NCBI GenBank assembly: GCA_965178125.1
Contig: OZ237775.1
Location: forward strand, 248,001 to 312,000
From: Bilabrum cf. latius
Taxonomy: Eukaryota
Direction: 5' to 3'
DNA length: 64,000 nt
Shown: in pieces, positions 119 to 64,000 of the stretch
Layout of the letters: every line of letters begins with the position of its first letter
Numbering within the stretch: position 1 is the stretch's first letter
The notes under the pieces: generated by a model
Databases searched by the model: none
Seen by the model: the letters and a program-made list of their open reading frames with translations, nothing else
Told to the model about the DNA's origin: nothing
Translations under genes and position numbers: made by a program

Positions 119-3100
119 ATGCGCTCCTCTGTGGGTGTACTGGTTTCTCTGTCATGCCTCTTGGCTGTGTAGGCTGTGGACAGGAGCAAGTTCAAGACTT
201 GTAAAGATGCCGGATTCTGCCGCCGCCACCGTGATGTGGAAGTGGAGCCTGCTGTGAGACAGTTCTCGGAGCAATTTATCGAATTCGTCAAATTTTGGCT
301 TTAATTATAGACTGACAATGAACTCGCCAGGGCAGCAGTGCCCTTAGTCGTCATGGACAGCTTCGGTAGTGGTGTTGCGAGTAGCCGGGACACGTGGTAG
401 CGCACGCTGCGCATAATCTGAACAGCGCTGCTCGGATCGGCTTTATCGTTCGCACCCCTACCTATGTAACACTCCCCTCGAGCATTTCATCGCAGTGGCG
501 CATCGCGGACGGCGAGCTGGATGTCCGGCCGGAGCAGGCCCGCGCCACTGCTCGCCTCGTCGGCGGGCCTCCGGGAGCCCCGCCTCTGTCGCTGCTGATG
601 CGCTTCCTGGAATCGGGAGCAGTTCGTACCAAAATTGTGGAGGACGACGGCCGGGAGCCCCGCTGGGAGAATCATGACGTCGTGCTCGAGGCAGCCGCGG
701 GCTCCAAGGCCGCTGGCGTGAAGCTTGCGACCAACAGTGACCCCAGCGTGGGGGCGGCCGCGGGGACGGGCCAGCGCCTCCCCTCTGAGGGGCACTCGTA
801 CGTCACGTTCAAGGGAAGGGACGGCCAGGCAAGGCTGGTGATGGTGCGGCACAACCCCTTCCGCGTCGATGTCTTTATGGGCGGCAAGCACCACGCCAGC
901 GTCAACGGCAGGGGGCATTTCTACCTCGAGCACAGGAGAGAGCGGGATGCGGCTGCGGCAGCCGCTGCAGCCGCCGCCAATGCCGCGGCGCAGCAGGGAG
1001 GCAGCGGCCAGCCGGGCGGTCGCAAGATCCTAGACTGGGGCGAGGATGGCAAGCCCATCTACGCGGACGCCGAGGAGGGCGGGGACAACGCGGTTGCAAC
1101 CTCCTCGGGGAACAGCAACGAGGCACCCGAAAGCGGCAGCGATGCGGCCCCTCCCGCCGTGGCAGAAGAGGGCGACGCCTACTGGGAAGAGTCCTTCAAG
1201 GAACACAGAGACACCAAGCCACACGGGCCCATGAGCGTGGGCGTGGACGTGGCCTTCCCGGGGAGGACCCATCTGTACGGCATCCCGGAGCACGCTGACA
1301 GCTTCGACCTGCGGGGAACCCGAGGCGAAGGTTCGGCGGGTCCCCTTGCCTCCCAGGCCGGCCAGCAGCCCCACACGGAGCCGTACAGGCTGTACAATCT
1401 GGACGTGTTCGAGTACGAGCTCGACAACCCAATGGCACTGTACGGGTCCATTCCGTTCATGGTGGCGCACGGGCCCGGGCACTCAACGGCTATGTTCTGG
1501 CACAACCCCACGGAGACCTTCATCGATATCGAGAAGAACGGGGCCGCGGGAGCTGCGGGCACCTCTGGCCGCCCGGGGGCGGTTCGGGTGGCAGGCAGCT
1601 CCACACACTGGTTGAGCGAGTCGGGCGTGTTCGACCTGACCATCTACACGGCCGGGGAGCCAAAGGCAGTGGTGTCGCACTTCACGGAGATGGTGGGGGC
1701 GCAGGAACTCCCTGCCAAGTTTGCGCTCGGGTACCACCAGTGCCGATGGAACTACAGGGACGAGCCCGACGTCTTCCAAGTGGACGCCAAGTTCGAGGAG
1801 CACGATTTCCCCTACGACGTGCTGTGGCTCGACATCGAACACACGGACGGGAAGCGGTACTTTACCTGGGACAAGGCGATGTTCCCCAACCCGGTCGCGA
1901 TGCAGGAGAAGCTGGCGGCCCGCGGTCGCAAGATGGTGACCATCGTGGACCCCCACATCAAGATCGACACGGGCTACCCCGTGTACCAGGACGCCAAGGA
2001 AAAGCGCTTCTACGTCCGCAAGGAAGACGGCACCACCGATTTCGACGGGTGGTGCTGGCCCGGGTCCAGTGCCTACCTCGATTTCACCTCGCCCACGGTG
2101 CGCGACTACTGGTCGGACCAGTTCGCCGTGGAGCGGTATCAGGGCAGCACCAAGCACCTGTACACGTGGAACGACATGAACGAGATGTCCGTGTTCAACG
2201 GCCCCGAGGTTACGATGCAGAAGGACACGCGGGCCATCGACGGCACGGAGCACCGGGAGTGGCACAACCTATACGGGTACTACCAGCACTGGGCCACCGC
2301 GGAGGGGCACAGGAGGAGGGAGAAGGACGGCAACACGCGGCCATTTGTTCTCTCGAGGGCGTTCTTTGCGGGTACTCAGAGGCACGGGGCCATCTGGACG
2401 GGCGACAACTTGGCGGACTGGACGCACCTGCGAGCCTCCGTGCCAATGCTCCTCTCCATCGGGACCGCGGGCCTGGCATTCGCGGGCGCCGATGTGGGCG
2501 GGTTCTTCAAGAACCCCGACCCGGAGCTCATGGTCCGCTGGTACCAGGCGGGCGCCCACCAGCCGTTTTTCAGGGCACACGCGCACCTGGATACCAAGAG
2601 GAGGGAGCCGTGGCTGTTCGGTGACGAGGCCATGGGCCAGCTGAGGGCGGCAGTGCGCGAGAGGTACGCACTGTTGCCGTACTGGTACACGGTCTTTGAG
2701 GAGGCCGAGAGGCAGGGCACCCCTGTCATGCGGCCCATGTTCTTCGAGTTTCCCGAGCAGGAAGGAACGTTCGGCGAGCAGTCGCAGTGGATGGCCGGCG
2801 GGGCCCTGCTCGTGCGGCCCGTCATGGAACAGGGGGCCAGCCAGGTTACCGTTCAGTTCCCGGGGAACACGCGCTGGTATGGCTTCCGCGACGGCGCCCG
2901 CGGCCTCGTGTACTCCGGGGCCCAGCCCGGCAGCAAGGCCGTGGACGCGCCGATCGACGTGATCCCGGTCTTCCAGCGGGGAGGGAGCATTGTTCCCCGG
3001 CAGGAGAGGCCCCGGCGCTGCAGTGCGATGATGTCTAGAGATCCGTTCACTCTGGTGGCCGCGCTTGACGAGGAGGGCCAGGCCAGCGGAGAGCTGTACG

Positions 3101-3420
3101 TGGATGACGGCATCTCGTACGACCACTCGAGGAAGGGCGCTTTCCAGAGGAGGCGCTTCGAGGTGAGGAACAGCGGGAGCGGGAGCGGGTCCTGGAGCGT
3201 GCACTCGTCACTCGCTGCGGGTGACAAGGCCTGGGCAGGGGAGGGGAACACCGTGGAGCGGATCGTGGTGGCGGGCGTGCTGTCCAAGCCCAGCGGGGCC
3301 TCGGTGCGAGGCTCGGGGGCGGCTGTGGACCTCGAGTATGATGCGGGGCAGCAGGTTGTGACGCTGCGGCGCGTGGGCGTGCCTGCCCTGCAGGATTGGG
3401 TGATCGACGTGCAGGCGTGA
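119..3420 (+). CDS. GANAB: Glucosidase II alpha subunit (neutral alpha-glucosidase AB, GH31), ~1019 aa, 2 exons
   Basis: Exon 1 (119-253) reads MRSSVGVLVSLSCLLAV[TAG 170]AVDRSKFKTCKDAGFCRRHR: a signal peptide followed by the conserved glucosidase II N-terminus. Intron 254-495 (GTGAGA...TCGCAG). Exon 2 (496-3420) has PYRLYNLDVFEY, GYHQCRWNY, WLDIEHT, catalytic WNDMNE, WTGDN and PFFRAHAH. Ends TGA. Confidence 0.93.
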
Positions 3421-4664: not shown

Positions 4665-4995
4665 TCTTCTAAATCCTATCCTTTTGTAAAACGGGCAGCC
4701 ATCAGTACACGTCACCTCGCTAGGTTCCGCTACTGTCGCTTCCGGAAGCATTGCGCGGCGAATTCCAAATATTGTCTCATCGATACTATATCGTCGATCC
4801 CGGTGTTTTCCGACCCAAAATCAAGCTGCTTAGCAGGTCAACAAAAAAAAACTACGGTGAGGAAAGTCCGGGAAATACTGTTTTGTATCCTAATTAAACA
4901 CTGCCTGCTGGCGGCAAGTACGATTGGTTGTCAAGATTGCAAATGACGACGACCAAATTAACATGATTCTCTCTCGTTTCACAGAAGAACACACG

Positions 4996-7900
4996 ATGCC
5001 GTGCAGCATCTGCAGACAGTCCGGCCACAACAGACGCACATGCCCTATGGCAGGCGGTGGGGATGGATTCAGCGGTGGAGGGAGCTCATATGGAGGTGGA
5101 TCCTTCGGAGGCGGCTTCGGCGGCGGCTATGGAGGTGGCGAATCCATGCCCCGGCCCAGGCAAACCTGCAGCTACTGCCGCAACCCTGGCCACAATATCC
5201 GCACATGCCCCTCAAAGCAAGCAGACGAGATGCGTGCCCATCGGGCCGAGGAAATGCGCCAGCAAAGGCAGAGAGAGGAGCGTGAGCGAGCGTTCCGGAG
5301 GCAACAAGAGGCTGATGAAGCCCGACGCAGGCAGCAGGAATATGAAGCTGAGACCCGCCGCCGGCAGCAGGCGTGCGGCTACTGCCGCAGGCCCGGGCAC
5401 AACATCCGCACATGCCCCGTAAAGGCCGAAGCTGAGGCGCGAGAGCAAGCTGAGACGCGCCGCCGGCAGCAGGCGTGCAGCTACTGCCGCAGGCCCGGGC
5501 ACAATATCACTACATGCCCGGAGAAGGCCGAAGCTGAGGCGCGAGAGCAAGCTGAGACGCGCCGCCGGCAGCAGGCGTGCAGCTACTGCCGCAGGCCCGG
5601 GCACAATATCACTACATGCCCGGAGAAGGCCGAAGCTGAGGCGCGAGAGCAAGCTGTGACGCGCCGCCGGCAGCAGGCGTGCAGCTACTGCCGCAGGCCC
5701 GGGCACAATATCACTACATGCCCGGAGAAGGCCGAAGCTGAGGCGCGAGAGCAAGCTGTGACGCGCCGCCGGCAGCAGGCGTGCGGCTACTGCCGCGAGC
5801 CCGGGCACAACATCCGCACGTGCCCCGTAAAGGCCGAAGCTGAAGCGCAAGAGGAAGCTGTGACCCGCCGCCGGCAGCAGGCGTGCGGCTACTGCCGGGA
5901 GCCTGGGCACAACATCCGCACGTGCCCCGTAAAGGCCGAAGCTGAAGCGCAAGAGGAAGCTGTGACCCGCCGCCGGCAGCAGGCGTGCGGCTACTGCCGG
6001 GAGCCCGGGCACAACATCCGCACGTGCCCAGTAAAGAGGAGGGAGCAACAACAATTTAATCACGATGCCGTGGATCGAGCGCGTAGGCTGGCAGCGAGGC
6101 AGAGGGAAGCTGTCCAGCAGTAGCCCCCTGCGATTGGGGCTGACACGACAGTGATGCTCCCGCCCACAGACACCTCGCAGGGTGCTGATGAGATCGGTAA
6201 GGACCTGTTTCCGAGTCTGGATCTCCATGACAATGTGCGGGCAGAGCCAGCCCAAGTCATCCATCGGGTGATGGAATTCCTCCAGCAGTAGAGTGTTACG
6301 ACCAGCGGTGACCAGACTTGTTCGGATGCCAAAGATGGCGGCGATCGCATCTCGAGCGAAAAAGCACCAGTAGACTCTGCAGCAGGAGGCATGAGCACGC
6401 CGCCCAGGTCAATGGACACGGCAGGCAAGATCAAGGACACGGGCCTGACGATGGATCAGCTCTAGACGCTCAAGGCTTCCCTCGCCAATATCAAAGTCCC
6501 GAAGAAGGACATCATGGTGGACCTCACTGCCAAGCCGTTGGGAGAAGGCAGGTATGGCGCGGTCTACGCCGGGGCGTACGCTGGTCAGGCAGTGGCGGTC
6601 AAGGTGATCCAGGGCGGGGTTACCATCGGCAAGAAGCAGGAAAAGAAGCTGCTCGAAGAGGCCCAGGCTCTCAAACTCATGTCGTTCCACCCCGGCTGCC
6701 TACGTTTCCTGGGGTACGTGAATGACGATGGCATGCTCGCACTCGTCACAGAGCTGGCAGACGGCTCCCTGGGTTCCATGCTGGACGAGGAGGGCGACGA
6801 GCTGACTGTCAAGCAGAGGCTGTCGATCGCCACCGATCTGGCAGACGCACTCAAGGCCCTTCATGCGAACGGCATCGTGCACCGTGACCTGAAGCCCGCT
6901 AACGTGCTGCTCAAGATCAAGGACCAGGACAAGGGTGTTCCTGAGAGGACTATCAGACCGCTGGTGGCGGACTTTGGAATGTCCAAGCTGAAGACCAAGG
7001 TACAGACCACCACAACCACCGGACATGGTTCCGCTGACGGCGCGGCGACAGGCGGGGCGGCATATGCTGCCGATGCGACGGTCACTGGGGCTGGGGGCAC
7101 CCCTCTCTATATGGCACCGGAGATCGGCCTCACCCCCGGCATCAAGGTCAGCGCGGCTCACGATGTCTGGGCCTTCGGGCTGATGCTGAACGAGATCCTC
7201 ACCGGAGACACGCTCACGGACGATGACGCGTTCCAGGAGGAGGTGGGTGACCTGGCGGGAGAACCCATCAAGGGAATCGCGACCAAGTTCAAGGAGGGCT
7301 TGCGGCCCACTCCCACGGATAACCCCGCTCTGACCAAGGCCAATGATCTGGTGCAGAGGTGCCTGAACATCGATCCCGACAAGAGGCCAACCTTCAAGGA
7401 AATCCACGCCGAGCTGCAAGGCATGCTGCAAGAGAGCCGGGGAGGGGCTGCTTCTCCCGCGGACACCGTCGCAACTGCGAGCCCTGTATCGGCACGAGGT
7501 ACAGGTACCGGCATCAAAGCTGAGGCACTGAGTATGGGTAGGCAGACCTCAGGAGGAACCGAGGGCGGGAGCAAGGGAGCTTCGTCCCGCATCACTGAGA
7601 AGACGGGGGGGCAGCACAGGGGCACAAGAGGCACCAGCGGTAAACGCGTGGCGAGGAGGCTGCAATTTGATGACAAGGGGGAGAAATACGAGCAGCACGG
7701 TGGTTCCGCCGGGGCGAGTGGGCAGTCGCAATCGTCTCTTGCTGCGATTATGCGGCCGTTCTTCAGCACGACAGCGATTAAGGCCGCTGCCACCCTCCTC
7801 GTGGTGGTGCTCCTGCACCTGATTGCAGCGCTGATGATTGATGTGTTGCTAGGAGGCATCGGCAACATGAGCCATGCGGTCGCAGGGTCATCTAATATTA

Positions 7901-8019
7901 CCGCGGTGCGTGCTACAGGCCTTTTGTCAATTGGTTGGGATACTGCGTGGAGCGGGGTGCTCGCTGCTCCGGCCGTGCTCGGGCTCGCCTACCTGGGCCA
8001 TGCAGCTGGCAGACGGTGA
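4996..8019 (+). CDS. Multi-CCHC zinc-knuckle / Ser-Thr (TKL-like) protein kinase fusion with C-terminal hydrophobic segments, ~1007 aa
   Basis: Nine CX2CX4HX4C knuckles, then a linker with in-frame TAGs at 6121, 6289 and 6463 in the same frame as the kinase ORF at 6514. Kinase motifs GEGRYG, VAVK, HRDLKPAN, DFG and YMAPE. Hydrophobic tail AATLLVVVLLHLIAALMIDVLLG. Ends TGA. Confidence 0.82.
5347..6036 (+). repeat. Coding tandem repeat, 102-nt (34-aa) unit, ~7 copies, one zinc knuckle per unit
   Basis: Unit AETRRRQQACxYCRxPGHNIxTCPxKAEAEAREQ; unit starts at 5347, 5449 and onward with a 102-nt period. Confidence 0.95.
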
Positions 8020-8350: not shown

Positions 8351-10570
8351 ATGCCGTGCAGCATCTGCAGACAGTCCGGCCACAATATACGCACATGCCC
8401 TATGGCAGGCGGTGGGGGCGGATTCAGCGGTGGAGGGAGCTCATATGGACGCGGATCCTTCGGAGGCGGCTTCGGCGGCGGCTATGGAGGTGGCGAATCC
8501 ATGCCCCGGCCCAGGCAAACCTGCAGCTACTGCCGCAACCCTGGCCACAATATCCGCACATGCCCCTCAAAGCAAGCAGACGAGATGCGTGCCCATCGGG
8601 CCGAGGAAATGCGCCAGCAAAGGCAGAGAGAGGAGGAGCAGCGAGCGTTCCGGAGGCAACAAGAGGCTGCTGAAGCCCGCCGCAGGCAGCAGGCATATGA
8701 AGCTGAGACCCGCCGCCGGCAGCAGGCGTGCGGCTACTGCCGCAGGCCCGGGCACAACATCCGCACGTGTCCCGAGAAGAAAGCTGACGACTTGCGAGAA
8801 GCTGCCGCGGCTGCTCGTGAAAGGGTCGCCCCTCGGCCGGAGCCCAAACCCAAGCAGGCGTGCGGGTACTGCCGCGAGCCAGGGCACAACGTCCGCACGT
8901 GCCGCAAGAAGATGGCAGCCGAGCTGAAACGGGTCCATCCAGCGGCTGGTCCCGATCCGGTTGCTCCGACACATCGGCCCCGTCACGAAGAGGATGCACC
9001 ACCGAAGAAGAAGCGCACCATCCACTGCGGCTTCTGCGGCGGGGAAGGACACAACATCCGGACATGCAGGCACAGGAAGGCACAGGAGGAGGCAGTCCGC
9101 AAGGCCAGGGAACAGGCTTTGCACGAAGCCAGTGAACAACGGGTGGCCCTCGAAAGGGAGCGTGACGCTCGCAGGCATGTCCACGATGACCGCCCGACCG
9201 CCTCCGAGGAAGCCAACTAGATGGGGCGAGACCTGTTCGACAACAACTTCAGGGCCGAAGGCGACCACGACATGGCTGCTTCAGGTGGATTCGACGACGA
9301 GGACTCGGATTCGGATCAAGATGCAGGCCCGAGCCTCCATGAGATGATGCGCATGATCGAAGAGCTGCGCAGCCGCGTGACAGCTGCATCTGACCCGGCC
9401 ACGCCTGCCAAGATCACTCCCGAGAGGCGCGCCGGGGCAGAAGCCGCAGGGGACGGGCTTGACGTATCTAGTTATTCTCCTGATGGTCGAGCACCGGCAG
9501 CATCTGCAGCAGGGGGCATCTGCACGCCGCCCAGAGCAAAAGCTGGCAAGATCAAGGGCACAGGCCTTACCATGGAACAGCTCAAGAAGCTCAAGGCTTC
9601 CCTCGAAAACGTCAAGATTCCCAAGAAGGACATCGTGGTGGACCTCACTGCCAAGCCCCTGGGTGTGGGTGCTTTCGGGAAAGTGTACGCCGGGGCGTAC
9701 GCTGGTCAGGCAGTGGCGGTCAAGGTGATCGAGGGCGGTGTCACCATCAGCAAGAAGCAGGAAAAGAAGCTGCTGGAGGAAGCCAAGACCCAAATGATCA
9801 TGTCGTTCCACCCCGGCTGCCTACGCTTCCTGGGGTACGTGAATGACGATGGCATGCTCGCACTCGTCACAGAGCTGGCAGACGGCTCCCTGGGTTCCAT
9901 GCTGGACGAGGAGGGCGACGAGCTGACTGTCAAGCAGAGGCTGTCGATCGCCACCGATCTAGCTGGGGCTCTACATGCACTGCACTCCAAGGGCATCGTG
10001 CACCGTGACCTGAAGCCCGCCAACGTGCTGCTCAAGATCAAGGACCAGGACAAGGGTGTTCCTGAGAGGACTATCAGACCGCTGGTGGCGGACTTCGGGA
10101 TGTCCAAGCTGAAGACAAAGGTACAGACCACCACTACAGCCGGTGCCGGTACCGGGAGCGGTGCTGCCACTGGCGGTGCGGCCGGCGGACCACTTGGTGT
10201 GACCATCACTGGGGCTGGGGGCACCCCTCTCTACATGGCACCGGAGATCGGCCTCACCCCCGGCATCAAGGCCAGCGCAGCTCACGATGTGTGGGCCTTC
10301 GGGCTGATGCTGAACGAGATCCTCACCGGAGACACGCTCATGGACGATGATGCCGTTGTGGAGGTGCTGAATGGGATGGCCGGAGATCCCATCAAGGGAA
10401 TCGCGACCAAGTTCAAGGAGGGCTTGCGGCCCACTCCCACAGATAATCCCGCTCTGAACAAGGCTAACGACCTAGTGCAGAGGTGCCTGACCATCGATCC
10501 CGACAAGAGGCCACCCTTCAAGGAGATCCATGGGCGGCTCCGTGAGATGCTGCGGGGCGTCGAGGCCTGA
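8351..10570 (+). CDS. CCHC zinc-knuckle / protein kinase fusion, tandem paralogue of 4996-8019, ~739 aa
   Basis: Five CCHC knuckles; a single in-frame TAG at 9218-9220 joins ORFs 8351-9220 and 9221-10570. Kinase motifs GVGAFG, HRDLKPAN, DFG and YMAPE. The 5' end and kinase domain are nearly identical to the upstream paralogue. Ends TGA. Confidence 0.82.
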
Positions 10571-10761: not shown

Positions 10762-11554
10762 ATGGCAGCCGCAGCTTCGTCAAGTGATGTTAATGTGGAC
10801 ATTATTTTCTACTGTGGGTGTTGAGCAATTGGCCTAAGTTTGCATGGGGTTAAACAGAGGTATTCCTCGTTTCGGTCAATTCGACACACTAACAGCGTTT
10901 TCAGTGAACACATGACTCGCTACCCTCGCAGCCATGTACACACACGTACTAATACTTGCCAAGGCCGTTCAGGAGGGCGCCGAGAAGGCCGGCGTGAAGG
11001 TCACCCTGCGCCAAGTGGCAGAGACGCTTCCCAAGGACGTGCTTGAGAAGATGCACGCGCCGGCGAAGCCCGAGGACATCCCAATCGCCACTCCCGACGA
11101 TCTATCTAAAGCAGACGGCGTTATTTTCGGATTCCCTACCAGGTTTGGCATGATGGCATCTCAGATGAAGGCCTTCTTCGACAGCACGGGCAGCCTGTGG
11201 CAGAGCGGCGCTCTCGTGGGCAAGCCAGCTGGCATGATCACGTCAACGGCCACGCAGAACGGAGGGCAAGAAACGACTCAGCTCACTGCGGTCTCTCAGC
11301 TGACCCATCACGGCATGATCTTCGTCCCAGCAGGATACATCTGCGGCAGCACCCAGTTCGACCTGACCGAGGTGCACGGCGGATCCCCCTACGGACCGGG
11401 CACGCTGGCGGGCGGGGACGGGTCCCGCATGCCGTCCGAGAAGGAGCTGGATTATGCAAGGACGTACGGCGCGCACTTCGCTGGCGTGGTCAAGGCCCTC
11501 AAGGTGGGTAGGGAGGCCACTGCACCCAAGGAGGCCGCCGAGGAGGGCAAGTGA
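10762..11554 (+). CDS. Flavodoxin-like NAD(P)H:quinone oxidoreductase (WrbA/Pst2 family), copy B, ~224 aa
   Basis: Exon 1 10762-10813 (MAAAASSSDVNVDIIFY), intron 10814-10931 (GTGGGT...TCGCAG) at the same position as in copy A, exon 2 10932-11554. Motifs PTRFG, GGQETT and GGSPYG. Ends TGA. Confidence 0.92.
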
Positions 11555-53507: not shown

Positions 53508-56309
53508 TCACAGGTCCCAACCCGCGCGGATCGCTTGCTCCACCACCTTTGCCACAGTTCCCGGAGGGGCTGTCGACGTAGGCGTGTTGATGGGCCGGTA
53601 CGGCGAACCGGCCCACAGAGAAAACGCCCAGAAATGTGGCCTGCGGAACGCAGGAGGAAGCACCTCGATCAGCTTAGTCCCGGGTCTCGCCCACAGTACG
53701 TGCGAGAGCCCAGCCCCGTGCGCCCCGACGATCACGCAAGCCCGCCTCACCATCGACACCTGGTCGACCCACTGCGTCCGGCTGAAAAACCCGCTCTCCA
53801 CCTCTATTTTGGCTCCGAGTTCCTTGGACAGGCTCTCTGCCATGCTCTGCAGACCGGCCTCCACCTGAGGCTCGTTCTCGATCCGGTGGACGATCTTCCC
53901 GTTGGAGCGAGGGTGGGCCACGTAGTCCTCCCGCCTGACGAAGAGCACCCGCACTGTGCCGCCAGAAGAGGCCGAGCAGGTGCTCGAGGCAGCGACCTCG
54001 CGCAGGGACGGGATGACGACGGGGTTGTCCGCACTCGTCACACCGGGAGGGACCAGGGACGCCCCGGCTGCCGCAGCGAGGGCATCGGGCCTCGTCTCTG
54101 GTGCACTCGCCACACTATCACTCGTCACACCTTCCGCCGAGTACCCCAGCGGCCTACCCGTGTTCCCCAGTACGGCGTGTCCCATCCTCGCCGCGAACCA
54201 CATGCCGAACTCTCGCATGTAGGGGTCCGACGGGCACATCCTGCGGGGGCTGATGGCTCGCTCCGCGGGAGCGCGGTAGGCCACGGGCAGGAACACGACG
54301 TGTCGAACGCAGAGCTTGTCCGGCAGGTGCTTAAGGAAAAATACCCTCCGGAATATCTGCTGCCAGACCTGGTCCATTCCACTCTCCGGGTGAGCGTCTG
54401 CGATGATCATGTCTGCCTGGGGAGCGTCGCCTCTGAGCAGCTGCTCGCGGATCTGCTCGAGGCGAGTAGCTGCTTCGTCCCCCTTGCTCAGCTGAGCCAG
54501 CCGATCATCCACCCAGTCTACCAGCCAAGCGAACATGTGGGGAACAAGCCTGTTTCCCACGAATGCCTGGTTATGGTCGCAGCTCTGGTGGTAGGGGTTG
54601 GCGTACTCGGTGCGGCCAAGGACGAACGCAAAATCCAGCACCGCAGTGCACTGCGCTTCTACCACCGCGCCAGCCCCACTCTCCGCACTCGTCACAGGCA
54701 ATCCGCCCAGCCTCTCGGACCCGCCGGTTGCGACCGCCAGCTGCGTCAGGAGGTCTTTCTGCAGCGAAATGATCTCACCCATCGCGTGCGGCCGCAGGAC
54801 CATGTCGTCTCCGCCGTCGTGCAGTGCACCCGTACCTCCAGATCCAGCGGTAAACGCGCCCGAAGCGCTTGCGGGAACGCTCGACACACCGGTCGTAACC
54901 GCCTGCGCTGCATGTTCCGCAGCGCGCGCGGCGCCGGTCCCAGGGTCCTCGTGCTCGTTGGCCCTTCCAAGCTGCGACTTGGCCTCCCCGATCGTCCCAG
55001 GGAACAAAATCGTGGCGGTGCCCGGGTTGTACTTGACCCACTCCCTGCCTTCGTCCTGTCCCATTACCTGTGACACGGGCTCGCCGCCCCTGTTGGCCAC
55101 CGCCTTGCTGGGGTTCAACACGAGATTCGTGCCGGCGCAAACAGTGCTCGCTACCTCACTGTTGGTGACGCACTCGAAAAGCGAGGGCAGCGCGACTGCA
55201 ACACCGTGCACTGCACCCGCCCCTTTGTCCAGGTGCACCTCCCCCTTGTCACCCGCATCGCCGGACTGCCTCTGCACCAGACCAAGGGCCGCTTGGGTGG
55301 GCTGGTGGGCCAGTCCATCGCCCACGCCCGGTCCGTTCAGCCGCACCAGGGCCCCAGACCGGAAGTAGGTCGAGCGCTTCGTGTACCCCGGCCCGAAGAA
55401 GCTGCGGCAGTACCCCCGCACCGCTCCGTCCTGCGCGTCTCCCCAGGGCACGCCGCCTGCGGAACCTGAGTAACGCGCGGCGCCGGCCTCCACCTCCGGC
55501 CCAGTCCCCGGCCGCAAGCCCCCCGCTGCGATGGCGGCCGACACGCCCCGTCTCGCCCCCTTCATCCTAGACTTGACCGAGGAATCGGCGCGGTGCTGCT
55601 GGCGCCAGTCCAGGATGGGAGGCAGGGACAGGCGAGCCACAGCTCCAGTGCCACCGAGACCGACTGCCGGGGCTTCTGTCCACTTGGCGGGGATATCTGC
55701 GCGGCCTCCACCCGCGAACCCGCTACCGGTGCCCAAATCGAAGAGCCGTCGGTCGAGCCGGGGAAGCAGCCCAGTTACGGGCTCTGGCTACCGAATGTTG
55801 TTCTCACTAGCAGGGCTTGACTTTACAGGCCCCGGATCTAGCGTACTTATGCTTGGCTTATGTTGTTCTCCGGGCCGCTTGCTATCATCTAGCGGTTGCT
55901 CGTTAGAAACTGCATAATCAGCCCAAACGTTGTCAAGCCGATCAGCGGATCGGGTCTCCGAGGTATGGGCCAGGTGCTAGCCAGCAGCCCGCTCCGCTGC
56001 AGAGAGAGTCACGTGAGACTCTGGCTGGCTCGCCACGTTGTTCCGTTGATTGGCGCGCAAGAAAGCAGAAGGCAGTGAGCCGCCGCCGGTCCTAGGCACG
56101 GAATGCACTAGCTTCGGAACCTCCACAGGCCGATAGATGCCCGGTGACGGTTTCAGCATGACATTTGATTCGCTACTTAACTCAATCGCCCGTCTGGAAC
56201 GCAATCCCGGAGAGCTTATGAAAGAGTACAGAATCACCAGTTGGATTCCGATCACAAGACAGGCAAACGCTGTGCATAGCGCAAACGTTCTCGATCCTCC
56301 GCAAGGCAT
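53508..56309 (-). CDS. Glycosyltransferase family 61 (EOGT/xylosyltransferase-like), type II membrane protein, ~933 aa
   Basis: C-terminal GT61 motifs RTEYANPYH, VLFVRRED, RIENE and IVGAHGAGLSHVLW. TAGs at 55788 and 55977 join the catalytic ORF to an N-terminal signal-anchor (FALCTAFACLVIGIQLVILYSFI). Ends TGA. Confidence 0.8.
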
Positions 56310-56531: not shown

Positions 56532-58478
56532 TCAATCAAGCTCCGCAGCAAGCTAGAGCAAGTCATCCACCTCATCGCTGCCATCCATTGCCACCTGAGC
56601 CCCGCTCCCACCAACCCGGACTGCCCCTCCACCCCAGCTGCTGCCAGTGGTGCGGCCCCCGTGCCATGGTCCGTTGCTGGCACCATCATTGGCATCAACG
56701 CCGCTCCTGTGACCACGCTCCATGGCCTGCACCCCACTGCCCTGCTCCAAACCCCCAGACCCCCCAGCAGCGCCAGCACTTGTCACACCCTACCCAGCAG
56801 CAGTCTCAAGCTCGGCCATAAGCAGCTCAGCCTCTGCCTCCGCCTCCAAGTCGTCCATGGCTCCAGCCAGCAAATCCATCTCGGTGGCGCCCGCAGTCGT
56901 CACGCCCGATCCGACCCCGGCCCCATGGACTACTGCTGGCGCCCCCCCCGCATCCTCCCCCGCACCAGCCTCATGAACCCCCTAGTCCTCACCTCCGATC
57001 CCGGCCAGCAGGTAGTCCGCGGCAGCAGCCAGCGCCGCGGCCTCATCGGCAGAGGCAACCATCGCGCCACCACCATGCGATGCACCCATCGACACCGCCT
57101 GACCCCCATAATGGTAGCTAGATGAAGAGGGGGCCACTGCAGGGAGGCTCCCCGACCGCAAGCCACCCTGGGCCTACTGACCCCCCTGTCCCCCCGCCCC
57201 CACAGGAGCATCGAATGAGCCACCTGAGCCGCCCGTGGCGCCAGCGCCAGCAGCAGCAGCAGCCGCAGCAGAAGCAGTCCCGCCACGTCTCACCCCACCA
57301 CGCGCGCCCAGATCCGCTCCCTGCGGCAGAGCCGCGATCAGCTCCACCGGTGGATCCACCACCCCTGCCTCGGTGATCACGAATGGCACCACGGTGGCAG
57401 GTGCAGTGGGCGACTTGATGACGTGGATCCTCCGGAGTAGCGCCTCTGCAGAGGCAAGGGTAGGGTCTGCCACTCCCCCTTGTTCCCCGTGTCTATCCCC
57501 GCCGCTGCTAGGCCCACCCCCCCGCTCCCTCCAGTCGCCGAGGGGCTGCACGGGCGACACGTCCATGACCACCCGCACGTTCACGGCATGCGTCCAAACG
57601 ACACCCAGTGCGGGCAGGACCCACGTCGAGGAGGGTCGCTCTGCCGCTCGAGAGCTTGCTGCGGAACCAGAAGAATTGCGCGGCGCCCGCCCAGATACCT
57701 GGTTGGTCACCAGCACTGCCAGGCCCAGCGACTCGGCGATGCGCTTCAGCTGCGCCGCGTGGCGGTTGAGTCGAGCCACGCGGGCAAAGGAACTCCCGGC
57801 TCCGAATCCGTCCCGCGCCAGCGCGGCCACGGAATCGAAAATGACGAGTCCGGCACTTGTCCTAGCGGCGGCGTCCTCCAGCCGACCCATCGTGATGTCC
57901 AGCTCGCGGGCGCTGCGCACGGAGAGCACCGTTATCTTTCCGAGCATTTCTCGGACTCTGTCTGGTCCGGCTACGGAATCGCCAAAATACTAGGGAAACC
58001 GGCAAAGAGCAATTTCGGCAAGACGCTCTGCCGAAAACTTGAGCTCTGTGTCCAATACGATGACGGGTGCATTGTGTCCCCCTTGTCGTAATGGTACTGC
58101 ACACTATACCGCTACACACGAGGACAATGTGCTCTTTCCTACTCCGGCTGGGCCGCATATCTCGGTGATGCAGCCCTTTCGAATCCCACCAAGCTTGCTG
58201 TCGAGCTATCTGAGCAGAGTAGGGATAGCATACGGCCGAGACTCCTCCTCTTCTTGAATCTACCACATTTCAAGCGCGGAAGATGGCTCTGGACAGGCCT
58301 TCCTGGCCGCCAAGTCGAGTAAAGCATCGGCGTCAGAGGTGCTCACTCCGATAATTTCGCATACCTGGAGCCTACCGAGGCGCAACAAGTCTCCACAATT
58401 AGTAACACCGATACGATTAAATTGTTGCAACGAGTGCAAGGGGAAATCTGCGACGCGTCGCAATGGCACCCCAGCCAT
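56532..58478 (-). CDS. RAD51B: RAD51 paralogue RAD51B with long low-complexity acidic/Gly-rich C-tail, ~648 aa
   Basis: One frame with TAGs at 58260, 58206, 58104, 57990, 57174, 56982, 56790 and 56553. Walker A ITEICGPAGVGKS, RAD51B-like DTELKFSAERLAEIALCRFP[TAG]YF, Walker B LVIFDSVAAL, VLVTNQV, PALGVVWTHAVNVR and KSPTAP. Ends TGA 56532-56534. Confidence 0.85.
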
Positions 58479-59403: not shown

Positions 59404-62400
59404 ATGAGAGGCAGTACCTACGAGCCGCAGCAAAACACTGTCATTGCTCGCGGAACATTGAGAGGGTAAATAACTTATTGAATCTGAATTTTGATCCGAT
59501 CCCGAATGCTGGGAGCACCAGAGACCCCGTACCTACATCATCTTTGTTGCCAGTATGGCCTCGCGCTAGAGTAGTGATCGAAGTAACACTAGTTCTTCAT
59601 TATGCCAAACCGTCTGGATGCATACCAAAGCATCTCTGTGGTGAGAACACGGATAGAATACGAGTGCACACCATAGCAACCACGCAACCACCACACCATT
59701 AGGTGCTGCTTAAAACTATACTTGTAGGACCAGAGTGTTACACTATCTTGCAGGTTGGACATGTTTTTTGAGGAGCCAGTGGTGGATAAGGGCTCTGCCT
59801 CAGCAGCTGGCGTCATTGCCACAATTTCATTCGTGCTTGGAATGATCATGTACGCGGTCTATCTATTTTTGCTAACTCGTTCGGATCCAATTCCCATCGA
59901 AACTACAGTTCAAGGAGAAAGTGGCTAGTGTGAAGCAGTTAACGGCTTAAGCTTCGCTCGTTCGCCGCTCGGGTACCTCGTTCGAGGGCACGGGTAGGCT
60001 ACGATTTCAGCCAATCCTTGGCTACCAGCAAGCGAGCAGGACTCCTTGCTCTCCAATTCTACGGACGAATCGTCATATGTGCTAGGATAGACGAGTAATG
60101 GGCTCCTTGCGCGGTACAGCCGAGACTTTCCGGTCAGCGGGACGCTTGGCGTGTCGAGCACTGCTTCCACGCTCGGAGGCAGCGCCGATGATATAGAGAT
60201 TAAGCTTTGCAGAGGGCGTCGAGAGTTTTTAGAGCTGCAACCTGTCAGAGCTCCTCTTGAGATAGAGGAGAAATCGGACGTTTTCTCCCTCGCCTTCCTC
60301 TCGGCTGATCTCACGTCAGCGGCCTACCTCTCCAACAGCCCCGACTACCCACACCGACTGGCAGACCTGTCGGTGACACCGCCGGTTGTCACTGCCGAGG
60401 TGGATTATTTCGACTTCAAGCCAAGCAGCGTGAACGTCGAGGCCAAGAACATGCTTGAGTCGCAGGACGGCACACCGGCCGTGTGGATGCTAGAAGATGC
60501 TACTAGCTTCGCTGCTGGGTCCAGGGAAGTCGACGTGGACCCGTATGCGCGCTCTACCGAATGGGCCGACGAAAGCTGGGATGCAGCCAACGAGACGATT
60601 CTCATCAACGCAAACCTTGGAAGCGACGACTCAGTACAGGTAATCGTGCAGTGCAAGTTCGTCGACACGCAGGACCGCAAAGAGAAGCTGGCCACCACGA
60701 GAGCGTTCGGTCTCAACCGAAGGACAGCGGAGGTCAAGTGGTAGTACCTGCCAGACTCCCAGGTCATGCCAAACACCGTGGTTCACTCAATGGGTTGTCC
60801 TAACGTGCGCTCCAATGCAGCCAGGGACGTACTCTAGATCGCCAGCGTGCTCATTGACAGGGCCGCAACAGGTGATGAGTCCGATGCCCCGGACCGCCCG
60901 GGCTTGTCCGGCCCCCGCCTGCTCCGACTCGATGCAAACACTGGAGATGTGCTCGCCGACATTGTGCTCGCCCGGGATGCTGGCCCTGCCTCCTCTTCCG
61001 TCCAGGCTTCCAACCCAGCCAGCAGGCGAGCGGCAGAGGATCCAAACCGCGAGGCATGGCCGGCCAGTCAGGTCGACGGTATCGGCTGGGAGGCGTTCGA
61101 AGTGAGCATGCACCTGCCTCGCTCGTCGAGTCCGCAAGCTGGTGGCTCCGCTGGCAACGGCGGCGGCAATGGAGGCACGGAGGACGACTATGGCTCATAC
61201 GGACAACTGGACGACTTTGGCTGGTAGAATGATGACCCTGGATTCTGGGGAGCCGATGATAGTACGGGGTTCTCTGGCTTTGGAGATGACGACTAGTCTG
61301 GCTCTGGCCCTGGTTCTGGCTCTGGATCTCAATCATGCACTGCAGCTGATCTCGCGAGCCCAACCATAGAGAGAGTGCAGCAGGACGGCAACATGGTGGT
61401 GCTCTATTTTTCCGCGTCAAGCACTCCTAGCAACTGCGGTGGCGTGGATATGGCCCGCATCACTGCCTACCGTGACGATGGTCTCTTCCTCGACACTGTT
61501 TTGCTCGAGGATTATGAAGTGACAGAGAGCCTGAACGCGTAGGACGGTCGCATTACTGTGCCTCGCAGTGCACTGCAGGACAACGGGTTTGACGTGTACT
61601 TCTACCTGTCTGTGCAGCACTCGGCTCTGTGGTCGTGGTCCCCCTACGGCATCCTGCCGTCTGCCAGCATCCAGTTGACTGGTTCTGCTGGATCAGGGTC
61701 TGGTTCAGGTGGCACTGACGATAACGGCAGCACAAACCAGGATGACAACATATTCGGATGGGGTGGAGATGATGATAATACGGCTGGCACCGGCGGAGGT
61801 GATGACGATACTGCTGGCACCGGCGGAGATGATGACGATACTGCTGGCACCGGCGGAGGTGATGACGATACTGCTGGCACTGGCGGAGGTGATGACGATA
61901 CTGCTGGCACCGGCGGAGGTGATGACGACACTGCTGGATCAGGCAATGGAGGCACCGATGACGATGACAACTCCGGCTCCGCCAACTGTGCTGGAGCACC
62001 CTCCATCACGAACGTGCAAATCGTTGGGTCCAATGTACGACTCACCTTCACCTCACCTTCATCGTGCGGCACTATTCAGGATGTCCGAGTGGATGCGTAC
62101 AGAGATGATGGGTTTGTGACTGACACAAAGCTCATCAACCAGGTGAGCTACTCGAGCGGCCTAGACGCTGCCAACAGGCAGGTGGACATTCCCGCGAGTC
62201 AGCTGGACGACCAGGGCTACGACGTGTACTTCTACATCGAGCTGCGGTATGCGAGCGGATGGACAGGGTAGAGCTCGTACTCAGCTAGCATCTCTATCAA
62301 CAACAACCGCAGGCTCCGGAAGAACGGTGGCCGCTATGATATTGCCAGCAAGAGCGCTCGGTCGGCACAACGCAGCGGCCTCCCAAAGCGACGGCGACTC

Positions 62401-64000
62401 AATGCACAGCGCGCAAGACCTCCAACACCGCCGTCTCACAGCATGCGAGCGCCAAGACCTGGATTTTACCCGCCGTCGGACGGGCTCGTGTGGGTGCAGC
62501 TGGACTACTAGCCCGGCTTGTTCAAACATCTCGTGCGACTGGTGCTGCTTGACCTTTCCAGCGGTCAGATCGTATCCGATTTCCGCTCCGAATCCGATGG
62601 ACTGCACACCGGGGACCTACTGAAGAACGGGCAGTCGCAGTCGGTGGCATGGACGTTTCATGACGACATCTTCGCGTCCTCTGTGCATCTCATTGAGGGT
62701 GGCTCCGCTCTCCTCGTTCAACAGAGGGCCAGCATTGAGCTCAGCGAGCTGTAGGGACTGCTGCGCCGATCAATCGAGCTCCGCCTTGTTCGCATCGACG
62801 CCAGTACCGGCGCCGTCACGGCGGATCTAATGACGAACCGCGCGTAGCCGGGGCCCGTGGTGCCCTTGGCGAGCACCGTGGATCTAGGTGACAGGGTTCA
62901 GACGTGGACCGCAACCATCGGGCTAAACACTGCGCCGATCATCACCAGTGACTTCGAAGTTGACCTGCGGCGAGCATCGAACGGTCTCCCGTTCGTGATA
63001 GTGGGCAGCGGATCTACCTCATTCAACCAGAGGATGCCCAGGGGCCAGGTGGCCCGATTAAAGTTTTACAGGCTGCTGTCAGCGAGACTGACCTAGGACG
63101 GGGAGCAGATTCTCTCAGACTTCTAGTCGGGGAGTTCGAATGTTGATGACACCACAGACGGTCTTTGGCAAATCAATGGGAGACCGGCACTGCCCGTTGC
63201 AAACGGGTTCTGCGCAGTGCCTGACGATGATCTAGAGGCGCCGTTTCCGGCCGGCAAGGCTCCCATGGACTACACTGTGACCTTCGGATTCGATCCCAAA
63301 GAGCAGGTGTACGAAATGGAGGGGTGTAGCGCACTGCCTAAGGACGCCTACGGTGGAATCACTGTGCCTGCCTCTGGGCTTATCGTGCAGCAAGCAGGCG
63401 GGAGCTTGTCGCCTGTACTGAGCCGTCGAGACTCGGACGGCTGCCAGCCAGGGCGGGTCAACTACATCGGGACTCGATACGTGTACTTCGACCCCGCGCT
63501 GGCACGGGCAACTGCCGAGTTTCGCACGCAGACGCACTCTGCCAACCCATCCTCATGGTCCCAGGACCTGTGCCAAGGCGAGCAGGTGGCAGCAGGGTAC
63601 GTCATTCCGCTGCGTGACCCAATACAGCAGACGGTAACGATGATCAAGTGGATCGAAGAGTCTGCCATCGTGCAGTCTAAGCCGCTGGATCCACCCGTGG
63701 ACGGGACGTCAAGTCGCAACGTGTACTCCGGTAGCAACCTGCAGGTGCAGACGGCCCATTTGCAGGGCTTCTTCCCGTAGACAGCCGGCCAGACCATTGT
63801 GCGGACGGACGGTGTGCACGATCCGCTATCTACCGTTGCCTTCTGGCTGGGCATCCGTGACCAGGACGACTGCAAGCTTCGACTTGTGTAGAGCGACTTC
63901 CCCGGCTTTGGCGTGCCCATCCTGTCCCGGTTCACGCCCAGGAGCAATTCGATTCAGAAGGCCGAGGATGCAGATGTGTCAATCGTGTACCCATATCGCA
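59404..64000 (+). CDS. Large membrane-anchored protein of unknown function (>1400 aa, 3'-truncated by window edge)
   Basis: The frame from 59755 stays open to 64000 with 16 TAGs (59926, 59995, 60088, 60742, 60835, 61225, 61294, 61540, 62269, 62509, 62752, 62845, 63094, 63124, 63778, 63889) and no TAA or TGA. N-terminal TM segment GVIATISFVLGMIMYAVYLFLL. Acceptor TTGCAG at 59753; the first exon 59404-59465 (donor GTAAAT) is tentative. Confidence 0.75.
61762..61938 (+). repeat. Coding tandem repeat, 30-nt unit (GGGDDDTAGT), ~6 copies
   Basis: GGCGGAGGTGATGACGATACTGCTGGCACC-like units with a 30-nt period. Confidence 0.95.

What the first reader, a model, noticed from the sequence alone, without database searches (positions are those of the whole stretch)
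119..64000. Non-standard nuclear genetic code: UAG reassigned to glutamine while UAA and UGA remain stops
Seen: about 83 in-frame TAG codons across 14 of 17 genes on both strands, with no internal TAA or TGA in those frames. Reading TAG as sense restores full-length genes that end in TGA (12) or TAA (4). Established: where the family is conserved, the TAG sits at a Gln, e.g. dynein PVSVL*NG (LQNG), TAL*FG (IQFG), VI*KNL (IQK), FC*NKL (CQK), AEA*YGG (VQYGG), LYG*ML and LNRAF*E, and ubiquitin DYNI*RE (Q62). Most nuclear reassignments move UAA and UAG together. UAG-only Gln (as in NCBI table 15) is reported from very few eukaryotes, such as the fornicate Iotanema spirale and a few ciliates. Inference: this GC-rich flagellate does not look like a ciliate and seems stramenopile-like, so it may be an independent and possibly undescribed origin. 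The system should include a tRNA-Gln(CUA) and an eRF1 that accepts UAA/UGA but rejects UAG; neither gene is in this window.
Basis: partly seen in the sequence, partly recalled or inferred. Interest (0 to 1): 0.97.

Follow-up and report, generated by a model that had tools for sequence, protein, structure and literature searches.

The report
UAG read as glutamine in stramenopile
This GC-rich flagellate, whose closest named relative is the stramenopile Cafeteria, uses the stop codon UAG as a glutamine codon while keeping UAA and UGA as stops, a rare code variant not found reported for this major group.

Summary
In 15 genes that I accept (18,497 codons with the spliced dynein exon) there are 78 in-frame TAG codons in 11 genes and no in-frame TAA or TGA. 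Of the 14 complete genes, 11 end in TGA and 3 in TAA. Two axonemal dynein heavy chains (4,687 and 5,070 codons) are full length only if TAG is sense.

TAG means Gln. Across 26 dynein TAG columns, Gln is the best-fitting residue by 15 log units, and 6 of 6 strongly conserved TAG columns are Gln. A related environmental organism (82-92% identical dynein) also has 21 in-frame TAG codons, and TAG swaps mostly with CAG between the two. The other 22 related dynein loci have 0 or 1.

Assemblies from three studies match the window letter for letter where they cover the dynein. Two of them hold a spliced form and still carry TAG, which argues against editing.

The dynein tree puts the organism next to Cafeteria. 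Nine literature searches found no nuclear code change in stramenopiles.

The tRNA-Gln(CUA) and the eRF1 could not be examined, because no genome is held. This is a new member of a known kind (the table 15 type). Interest is about 0.72.

The parts
598..3420 (+). GH31 alpha-glucosidase (glucosidase II alpha-like). 940 codons from the first ATG, 0 TAG, stop TGA. The N-terminus is probably incomplete and an upstream exon is likely.
   Evidence: Pfam PF01055, PF13802 and PF21365. The PF13802 match starts at profile position 57.
4963..8019 (+). Protein kinase with CCHC zinc-knuckle repeats. 1,018 codons, 3 in-frame TAG, stop TGA.
   Evidence: Pfam Pkinase and zf-CCHC_2.
8351..10570 (+). Tandem paralogue of the kinase. 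739 codons, 1 in-frame TAG, stop TGA.
   Evidence: The two paralogues share 509 identical residues of 729 aligned.
10934..11554 (+). NADPH-dependent FMN reductase / flavodoxin-like protein. 206 codons, 0 TAG, stop TGA.
   Evidence: Pfam PF03358.
11863..12840 (-). Protein with no family match. 325 codons, 1 TAG, stop TGA.
   Evidence: ORF and counts. No Pfam match.
13630..14109 (-). Nucleoside diphosphate kinase. 159 codons, 0 TAG, GC3 0.91, stop TGA.
   Evidence: Translation. The family name is from my reading of that translation, with no family search run.
14788..17469 (-). GH3 glycoside hydrolase. 893 codons, 0 TAG, stop TGA.
   Evidence: Pfam PF01915 and PF00933.
18463..20208 (+). Protein with no family match. 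581 codons, 4 TAG, stop TAA.
20416..35628 (-). Inner-arm (DNAH7-like) axonemal dynein heavy chain. 5,070 codons, 17 in-frame TAG, stop TAA four residues after the end of the Dynein_C domain.
   Evidence: 14 Pfam dynein families, complete. Best hit is Cafeteria at 64%.
36004..37275 (+). Conserved membrane protein. 423 codons, 2 TAG, stop TGA.
   Evidence: It is conserved at 62-82% identity next to the dynein in relative locus L015, which has its own in-frame TAG, one of them opposite a window CAG.
37407..38636 (+). Protein with a C-terminal ubiquitin-like domain. 409 codons, 4 TAG, GC3 0.49, stop TAA.
   Evidence: Pfam PF00240. The gene is absent from the matching place in relative L015.
38972..52858 (-). 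Outer-arm axonemal dynein heavy chain, exon 2. 15 in-frame TAG, stop TGA three residues after the end of Dynein_C.
   Evidence: 18 Pfam families, complete. Cafeteria is 61% identical. Contigs from four runs match with 0 differences where they cover it; X7 covers only the upper part.
52859..52950 (-). 92-nt GT..AG intron of the outer-arm dynein gene.
   Evidence: The joint is present in contigs of runs X5 and X6 and absent from X1. The intron ends read GTGAGA...CCGCAG. The relative L002 is interrupted at the same place.
52951..53127 (-). Outer-arm dynein exon 1. 59 codons from the ATG at 53127, with 3 in-frame TAG at 53040, 52974 and 52959.
   Evidence: The N-terminus matches Cafeteria and other homologues. 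The TAG in the 'FFQP' motif lies opposite Gln in all 4 full N-termini shown.
53508..56309 (-). GT61-family glycosyltransferase. 933 codons, 2 TAG, stop TGA.
   Evidence: Pfam PF04577.
56532..58478 (-). Rad51-family (paralogue-like) ATPase with a long low-complexity tail. 648 codons, 8 TAG, stop TGA.
   Evidence: Pfam PF08423. The nearest homologue has Gln at 3 of the 4 TAG positions in the conserved part.
59602..64000 (+). Large repetitive protein with no family match. At least 1,466 codons, 18 TAG. It runs off the window.

Best explanation
The window is nuclear DNA of an intron-poor flagellated stramenopile with about 60% GC. Its closest named relative is Cafeteria. In this organism UAG is an ordinary, fairly rare glutamine codon (about 9% of Gln codons), and UAA and UGA are the only terminators.

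Shown here:
- TAG is in frame in conserved, full-length genes.
- TAG stands for Gln.
- TAG is present in the DNA and in spliced, transcript-like contigs.
- A related species shares the trait, and more distant relatives lack it.

Inferred from published cases (Panek et al. 2017, PMC5304391, passages read), not shown here:
- UAG is read by a dedicated tRNA-Gln with anticodon CUA. This is one mutation away from tRNA-Gln(CUG), and it cannot pair with UAA.
- eRF1 domain 1 has lost its grip on UAG but still recognises UAA and UGA.

A plausible route, which is my own inference, is that the strong preference for TGA stops in this GC-rich genome made TAG stops rare enough to be captured.
For: 1. Full-length genes need TAG as sense. 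In 15 genes and 18,438 codons there are 75 in-frame TAG, 0 TAA and 0 TGA, against about 52 TAA and 350 TGA expected at the off-frame rate. Three more TAG lie in a spliced exon. Only TAG as sense lengthens the longest ORF, from 1,699 to 5,072 codons. Both dyneins match every Pfam dynein domain from end to end.

2. TAG means Gln. The two dyneins hold 32 TAG columns, and 26 have at least 30 aligned orthologues. Over those 26, the log-likelihood is -63.4 for Q and -78.6 for the next best, K. All 6 of the 6 columns in which one residue reaches 80% or more are Q. The pooled Gln share at TAG columns is 0.37-0.38. The share is 0.39 and 0.24 at the genes' own CAG/CAA columns, and the background is 0.04. 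In the Rad51-family gene, the nearest homologue has Q at 3 of 4 TAG sites. In dynein exon 1, the TAG of 'FFQP' lies opposite Q in 4 of 4 full N-termini shown.

3. A relative shares the trait. Metagenome loci L002 and L015 hold a dynein that is 82% and 92% identical. They carry 14 and 7 in-frame TAG and no TAA or TGA. Opposite the relative's 21 TAG, the window has CAG 14 times, TAG 2, GAG 3, CAT 1 and AAG 1 (binomial p = 2.6e-15 against a 4% CAG background). Opposite 14 window TAG, the relative has CAG 9 times, TAG 2, TCT 2 and GCG 1.

4. More distant loci act as a control. The other 22 dynein loci (50-59% identity) have 0 in-frame TAG in 20 cases and 1 in two cases, and those two also carry TAA or TGA.

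5. The terminators are verified. The dynein C-termini end 3-4 residues after Dynein_C, at TGA and at TAA. The relative's orthologue stops after the same last residue, with TAA where the window has TGA.

6. It is neither an artefact nor editing. Contigs of runs from three studies (X1; X5 and X6; X7) lie on the dynein with 0 differing letters where they cover it. X7 covers only 42838-56323. The X5 and X6 contigs carry the spliced 92-nt GT..AG junction, so they derive from RNA, and they span all 18 TAG positions unchanged.
Against: - No tRNA gene and no eRF1 gene is available. ARAGORN found 0 tRNAs in the window and in 8 of the 24 loci. No genome is held. The decoding machinery is therefore inferred, not seen.
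- Only 14 gene ends were seen, so occasional use of TAG as a terminator, meaning an ambiguous code, cannot be excluded.
- The RNA nature of X5 and X6 is my inference from the spliced joint. The tool labels X5 'RNA? (probably DNA)' and X6 'RNA?'. All runs are contigs, which drop rare variants.
- X1 may be the sample from which the window was assembled, so it is not independent.
- Many TAG columns are variable. Of the 26 columns, 20 have no residue at 80% or more, and some have K, R, E or T as the commonest residue. That is normal for Gln positions, but it means that no single site is proof.
- There is no peptide evidence.
Confidence: 0.9

Rival explanations
1. The code is ambiguous. UAG is decoded as Gln inside genes but still terminates some genes, depending on context or on position near the 3' end. 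This is what the literature describes for Condylostoma and the karyorelict ciliates (search listings).
For: Only 14 gene ends could be examined, so a minority of TAG terminators would not have been seen. Sense TAG is rare (9% of Gln codons) and is avoided in genes with high GC3 (Spearman rho -0.74, p = 0.0017, 15 genes). That pattern would fit a codon that is still costly to read.
Against: None of the 14 gene ends uses TAG. Sense TAG occurs all along the very long dynein genes, including near their 3' ends. The base that follows a sense TAG shows no bias: A 23, G 23, C 15, T 14.
Confidence: 0.06
2. The meaning is the same (Gln) but there is no dedicated tRNA. The ordinary tRNA-Gln(CUG) reads UAG by first-position mispairing, and a weakened eRF1 allows this to be efficient.
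For: Nothing in the window separates this from a cognate tRNA. [quoted passage not shown] The low use of TAG in high-GC3 genes would fit slow decoding.
Against: With 17-18 TAG in each dynein gene, every one must be decoded efficiently or almost no full-length protein would be made. In the published cases of UAG or UAR reassigned to Gln where the tRNAs are known, cognate tRNA-Gln(CUA) genes exist (PMC5304391, passages read).
Confidence: 0.08
3. It is an artefact or non-functional DNA: a sequencing or assembly error, pseudogenes, or TAG corrected to CAG by RNA editing.
For: None was found. The only weakness is that every run laid on the window is a set of contigs and not raw reads.
Against: - Only TAG interrupts the frames. 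TAA and TGA never do, in 18,438 codons.
- Contigs from three studies are identical at these sites where they cover them, including contigs that carry the spliced junction.
- A second species has its own, partly different set of in-frame TAG.
- The genes retain full domain sets.
Confidence: 0.01
4. UAG is a sense codon for an amino acid other than Gln, such as Glu, Lys, Leu or Tyr as in other variant codes.
For: In some variable TAG columns the commonest residue in homologues is K, R, E or T.
Against: Q beats the next best residue (K) by 15 log-likelihood units over 26 columns. All 6 strongly conserved TAG columns are Q. Between the two species TAG exchanges mainly with CAG, in 23 of the 33 codon pairs that involve TAG; 2 more are TAG in both.
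Confidence: 0.01

Closest known systems
Iotanema spirale (Fornicata) nuclear code: UAG = Gln, with UAA and UGA as stops (Panek et al. 2017, PMC5304391; abstract and passages read)
   Same: The codon table is the same. Only UAG is reassigned, it goes to Gln, and UAA stays a terminator. The requirements inferred there would apply here too: a tRNA-Gln(CUA) and a change in eRF1 domain 1 (T32G in the GTS motif in Iotanema).
   Different: The supergroup is unrelated (Metamonada against Stramenopila). Iotanema is an anaerobic endobiont known from a transcriptome. Here there is genomic DNA from a GC-rich flagellate, plus a second related environmental species that shares the trait. UAA is described as the primary stop in Iotanema, whereas here TGA dominates (11 of 14 gene ends).
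UAG-only Gln in ciliates: Protocruzia tuzeti and two phyllopharyngean lineages (McGowan et al. 2024, PMC11687900; passages read). This is the NCBI table 15 pattern; the table name is recalled.
   Same: UAG is Gln and UAA is kept as a stop. The variant has arisen independently several times.
   Different: Those are ciliates, the group most prone to code changes. This organism is a stramenopile by dynein phylogeny, a group for which my searches found no nuclear code change.
UAA and UAG both reassigned to Gln (table 6 type): many ciliates, Hexamita, Streblomastix, ulvophycean green algae, Amoeboaphelidium (listed in PMC11687900)
   Same: A stop becomes Gln for UAG, which is the commonest direction of nuclear reassignment.
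   Different: Here TAA is never in frame in 18,497 codons, and it terminates 3 of the 14 complete genes as well as the relative's dynein. The table 6 type fails this test.
Other UAG-only reassignments: UAG = Leu in the rhizarian exLh and in a ciliate, UAG = Ser in Scotinosphaera (PMC11687900 and PMC5304391, passages read)
   Same: UAG is uncoupled from UAA.
   Different: The amino acid differs. Leu and Ser fit the TAG columns poorly. Leu is not among the 8 best-fitting residues, and Ser scores -82.3 against -63.4 for Gln.

Membership tests
UAG-only Gln nuclear code (NCBI table 15 type) | UAG occurs in frame inside conserved, full-length protein genes | tested here: met
   There are 78 in-frame TAG in 11 of 15 genes. 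The dyneins match all Pfam domains across them.
UAG-only Gln nuclear code (NCBI table 15 type) | UAG positions correspond to Gln in homologues | tested here: met
   Over 26 columns Q scores -63.4 and K -78.6. All 6 conserved columns are Q. TAG exchanges with CAG in the relative. Further support comes from the Rad51-family gene and dynein exon 1.
UAG-only Gln nuclear code (NCBI table 15 type) | UAA is not a sense codon and acts as a terminator | tested here: met
   There are 0 in-frame TAA in 18,438 codons. Three of the 14 gene ends are TAA, including the inner-arm dynein at its verified C-terminus. The relative's outer-arm dynein ends in TAA.
UAG-only Gln nuclear code (NCBI table 15 type) | UGA is not a sense codon and acts as a terminator | tested here: met
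   There are 0 in-frame TGA in 18,438 codons, against about 350 expected at the off-frame rate. Eleven of the 14 gene ends are TGA.
UAG-only Gln nuclear code (NCBI table 15 type) | UAG is no longer used as a terminator | tested here: inconclusive
   None of the 14 gene ends uses TAG. The sample is too small to exclude occasional use.
UAG-only Gln nuclear code (NCBI table 15 type) | UAG persists in the mRNA (no editing) | tested here: met
   Contigs of X5 and X6 that carry the spliced intron junction span all 18 dynein TAG sites with 0 differing letters. Caveat: these are contigs, not raw reads, and their RNA status is inferred from the splice.
UAG-only Gln nuclear code (NCBI table 15 type) | A cognate tRNA-Gln with anticodon CUA exists | not testable with these tools
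   There are no tRNA genes in the window or in 8 related loci. No genome is held.
UAG-only Gln nuclear code (NCBI table 15 type) | eRF1 domain 1 is altered so that UAG is not recognised | not testable with these tools
   eRF1 is not in the window, no genome is held, and no eRF1 query sequence was available.
UAA+UAG = Gln code (table 6 type) | UAA is used as a sense (Gln) codon alongside UAG | tested here: not met
   There are 0 in-frame TAA in the 15 genes, and TAA terminates 3 of them.
Stramenopila, near the Cafeteria lineage (bicosoecids) | Conserved proteins group with stramenopile orthologues, closest to Cafeteria | tested here: met
   The best named hit for both dyneins is Cafeteria roenbergensis (61% and 64%). 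In a FastTree of 30 rows the window is sister to {Cafeteria plus two metagenome sequences} with local support 100. This is a single-gene tree. No rRNA is in the window.

The most novel reading that the evidence does not exclude
This is the first nuclear genetic-code change in Stramenopila. It is an independent origin of the rare code in which UAG is Gln and UAA is still a stop. It arose in a GC-rich, TGA-terminating, free-living flagellate lineage beside Cafeteria. At least two species share it, and the nearest sampled relatives at 50-64% identity lack it. The organism appears in the assemblies of several sequencing studies, so it may be in culture. In that case it could serve as a non-ciliate model for how eRF1 tells UAG from UAA.
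Probability: 0.6. Interest if true: 0.82.

Novelty: new member of a known kind. Interest (0 to 1): 0.72.

Why it matters
UAA and UAG almost always change meaning together, and cases where only UAG is reassigned are few (PMC5304391, PMC11687900). Each independent case gives another natural experiment on how eRF1 and one tRNA can separate two codons that differ by a single purine.

A case in stramenopiles would add a whole major eukaryotic group to the map of nuclear code variants. It also sits in a GC-rich genome where TGA is the main stop, which bears on codon-capture ideas.

There is a practical side too. Under the standard code, 11 of the 15 genes here would be cut short, and each dynein would fall into many pieces. 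Public protein sets already hold apparent fragments that end exactly where a TAG lies. One example is a 90-residue protein that is 92% identical to residues 1-90 of the Rad51-family gene, whose codon 91 is TAG. Genomes and metagenome bins of this lineage need a TAG = Gln table for annotation, phylogenomics and completeness estimates.

Tried and rejected
- Whole genome. None is held for this window, so genome-wide codon tallies, a tRNA search and an eRF1 search were impossible.
- tRNA scan. There were 0 genes in the window and 0 in 8 of the 24 related loci.
- Rfam at gathering thresholds gave 0 matches, so there is no rRNA for placing the organism.
- Sequencing runs. No RNA holder is listed. 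I infer that X5 and X6 derive from RNA only from their spliced joint.
- An apparent counter-example was dropped. TAG at inner-arm dynein residue 4181 lay opposite Arg in 120 of 120 outer-arm dyneins. With true orthologues that column is variable (K 20, V 19, T 18, L 16 and others), so the Arg was an effect of comparing paralogues.
- A codon comparison of the two tandem kinase paralogues was uninformative. Their TAG sites lie in divergent stretches.
- The GH31 search was meant to find a close named relative. Its best hits were only 55-56% identical and unnamed.
- Halocafeteria seosinensis is an unlikely source. Its genome is given as 47-48% GC (bioRxiv 10.64898/2026.07.28.741278, passages read), while the window is 57-66% GC.
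- ORFs rejected as genes: 13075-14328(+) and 35839-36882(-), both antisense to real genes. The ORF at 17481-18272(+) was left undecided.
- Literature. Nine searches found no stramenopile nuclear code change. Subscription journals and supplementary files were not visible, so a report could exist there.

Full report
WHAT THE WINDOW IS

The 64-kb window is 57-66% GC. It is densely packed with eukaryotic genes on both strands and has few introns. Pfam identifies the following:
- a GH31 alpha-glucosidase
- two tandem kinases with CCHC zinc knuckles
- an FMN reductase
- a GH3 hydrolase
- two axonemal dynein heavy chains
- a protein with a ubiquitin-like domain
- a GT61 glycosyltransferase
- a Rad51-family ATPase

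I also read a nucleoside diphosphate kinase from the translation. That name is my own reading and comes from no family search. A membrane protein gene is conserved in a relative. There are no tRNA genes and no Rfam matches.

THE OBSERVATION

I compared ORFs of at least 300 codons, stop to stop, under four readings:

| Reading | ORFs | Longest (codons) |
|---|---|---|
| Standard code | 30 | 1,699 |
| TAG as sense | 57 | 5,072 |
| TAA as sense | 33 | 1,699 |
| TGA as sense | 97 | 1,699 |

The 97 ORFs under TGA as sense are mostly spurious, because TGA is the commonest stop triplet in this GC-rich DNA.

In the 15 genes I accept there are 18,438 codons. They hold 75 TAG, 0 TAA and 0 TGA in frame. 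The off-frame rates on the same strand would predict about 52 TAA and 350 TGA. TAG occurs in frame at 0.41%, the same rate as off frame (0.40%), so it behaves like an ordinary triplet.

Eleven of the 15 genes contain TAG. Eleven genes end in TGA, three end in TAA, and one runs off the window.

Both dyneins match every dynein domain of Pfam in order. Dynein_C ends 3-4 residues before the TGA in one and before the TAA in the other. Those two codons are therefore true terminators.

The excess comes from ORFs that I reject as antisense to real genes or could not decide on.

WHAT TAG MEANS

I aligned each dynein to 120 homologues found for it and read off what lies opposite each TAG.
- The two dyneins hold 32 TAG columns. 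Six lie in the low-complexity N-terminus of the inner-arm dynein, have fewer than 30 aligned sequences, and were dropped.
- Over the remaining 26 columns I used emission profiles learned from the same alignments. Gln has log-likelihood -63.4. The next best are Lys at -78.6 and Glu at -79.9.
- In 6 columns a single residue reaches 80% or more, and in all 6 that residue is Gln.
- The pooled Gln share opposite TAG (0.37 and 0.38) matches the share opposite the genes' own CAG and CAA codons (0.39 and 0.24). The background is 0.04.
- One apparent exception was Arg in 120 of 120 sequences. It disappeared when true orthologues replaced paralogues.

Other genes agree. In the Rad51-family gene, the nearest homologue has Gln at 3 of the 4 TAG sites in the conserved part and Thr at the fourth.

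A SPLICED EXON AND TRANSCRIPT EVIDENCE

One search for sequencing runs found assemblies from several studies that hold the dynein region. I laid four runs on 37000-56400.
- Contigs of X1 (study P1), X5 and X6 (study P2) cover the outer-arm dynein with 0 differing letters. X7 (study P3) also shows 0 differing letters but covers only 42838-56323.
- Contigs of X5 and X6 skip 92 bases with GT..AG ends on the gene's strand. The X1 contig runs straight through.
- This is an intron at 52859-52950, reading GTGAGA...CCGCAG.

The splice reveals the true first exon: 59 codons from the ATG at 53127, with 3 more TAG. The resulting N-terminus matches those of Cafeteria and other homologues. The TAG in the 'FFQP' motif lies opposite Gln in all 4 full-length N-termini shown.

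The spliced coding sequence is 4,687 codons long, with 18 TAG, no TAA or TGA inside, and a TGA stop. The spliced contigs must derive from RNA, and they carry T at all 18 sites. Editing of UAG to CAG is therefore not supported.

Caveats:
- All runs are contigs and not raw reads.
- The tool itself marks the RNA label as a guess.
- X1 may be the sample from which the window was assembled.

A RELATIVE WITH THE SAME TRAIT, AND CONTROLS WITHOUT IT

One scan of metagenome contigs with the outer-arm dynein returned 24 loci. Two of them, L002 and L015, come from one metagenome and cover residues 21-2791 and 3212-4649 at 82% and 92% identity. Together they represent a close relative.

In these two loci the orthologue has 14 and 7 in-frame TAG and no TAA or TGA.
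- Opposite the relative's 21 TAG, the window has CAG 14 times, TAG 2, GAG 3, CAT 1 and AAG 1.
- Opposite 14 window TAG, the relative has CAG 9 times, TAG 2, TCT 2 and GCG 1.
- CAG makes up 4% of the gene's codons, so 14 of 21 is far from chance (p = 2.6e-15).

The relative's gene stops after the same last residue, with TAA where the window has TGA. It is interrupted at the same intron site.

The other 22 loci (50-59% identity) serve as controls. Twenty have no in-frame TAG. Two have one each, together with TAA or TGA, which points to introns. The nearest database proteins, including both Cafeteria dyneins, were predicted full length under standard stops. The trait is therefore confined to the small clade that holds the window's organism and the L002/L015 organism.

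WHO IT IS

The best named hit for both dyneins is Cafeteria roenbergensis, at 61% and 64% identity. Oomycetes, ochrophytes and labyrinthulomycetes follow at 49-57%.

I built a FastTree of 30 rows: the window plus 29 of the 120 homologues, namely the named ones and the top unnamed hits. It places the window sister to {Cafeteria plus two metagenome sequences} with local support 100. That group sits inside a larger clade made only of metagenome sequences.

This is one gene, and the tree is rooted only for drawing. The GH31 protein has no hit above 56%, so the lineage is poorly sampled.

HOW IT MOST LIKELY WORKS

Shown here: UAG is translated, and it is translated as Gln.

Inferred from established knowledge (PMC5304391, passages read):
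- Reading UAG while ignoring UAA requires a tRNA with anticodon CUA.
- tRNA-Gln(CUG) is one mutation away from that anticodon.
- eRF1 domain 1 has to lose its recognition of UAG. Iotanema has T32G in the GTS motif.

I could test none of this. One pattern in the window is that TAG's share of Gln codons falls as GC3 rises (rho -0.74, p = 0.0017, 15 genes). The share is 0% in four genes with GC3 of 0.74-0.91, 7% in the dyneins, and 24-32% in three genes with lower GC3. This fits a codon served by a scarce tRNA, or simple mutational drift from CAG in weakly selected genes.

HOW IT COMPARES WITH WHAT IS KNOWN

The codon table equals the UAG-only Gln variant. A December 2024 paper lists that variant for Iotanema spirale, Protocruzia tuzeti and two phyllopharyngean ciliate lineages, with UAG = Leu or Ser elsewhere (PMC11687900, passages read). 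It is not the common table 6 type, because TAA is never sense here.

Nine full-text searches turned up no nuclear code change in any stramenopile. The hits that held both 'stramenopile' and code terms concerned mitochondria or were reference-list matches. Subscription journals and supplements were not searchable, and the sequencing data date from 2025, so a report may be in preparation or out of my view.

VERDICT

It is a new member of a known kind of code variant, in a major group where none was found reported, and a sister species shares it. The decoding machinery is the open part.

Noticed in passing
window 38640-38846 (+): A second ubiquitin-like domain lies just after the stop of the ubiquitin-like gene. 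It is in another frame, has no start codon, and has an in-frame TAA where ubiquitin has Phe45, plus two TAG. The contig of run X5 covers it unspliced. It could be a decaying domain, a 3' UTR relic, or something odder such as a frameshift. It is the only in-frame TAA seen inside recognisable coding sequence.
   Followed up: partly
window 37407-38636 versus L015:4317-5997: In the relative, the conserved membrane protein gene lies directly beside the 3' end of the dynein. The low-GC3 (0.49) ubiquitin-like gene that sits between them in the window is absent there, so it was gained or lost recently.
   Followed up: partly
window 37647-38293: Summed contig depth in run X1 jumps about 100-fold (16,945 against about 160) over the acidic Asp/Glu-repeat tract of the ubiquitin-like gene. 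Many contigs also have loose ends at 38140-38204. This looks like a simple-repeat pile-up and not a copy-number signal.
   Followed up: no
window 56532-58478 (-); proteins P0243, P0244: Public predicted proteins look like pieces cut at TAG. P0244 (90 aa, 92% identical) stops exactly before the window's TAG at codon 91. P0243 (359 aa, 68-72% identical) starts at an internal Met and ends two residues before the window's TAG at codon 435. This suggests further relatives with sense TAG whose genes were called under the standard code.
   Followed up: partly
window 4963-10570 (+): Two tandem paralogous kinases have N-terminal arrays of CCHC zinc knuckles. The first carries near-identical repeats of about 35 residues. 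They share 509 identical residues of 729 aligned.
   Followed up: no
window 322-700 (+): The GH31 gene probably has an upstream exon. The mutarotase-like domain match starts at profile position 57, and the first ATG gives no signal-peptide-like start. The open frame continues upstream through two TAG to position 322.
   Followed up: no
all 15 genes: TAG use is strongly uneven. Its share of Gln codons is 0% in the GH31, GH3, FMN reductase and nucleoside diphosphate kinase genes, 7% in the dyneins, and 24-32% in the Rad51-family, ubiquitin-like and 1,466-codon genes. It is anticorrelated with GC3 (rho -0.74).
   Followed up: yes
window 59602-64000 (+): A protein of at least 1,466 codons with no family match has Gly/Asp/Thr-rich tandem repeats and repeated domains of about 100 residues. 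It has the highest TAG count in the window (18).
   Followed up: no
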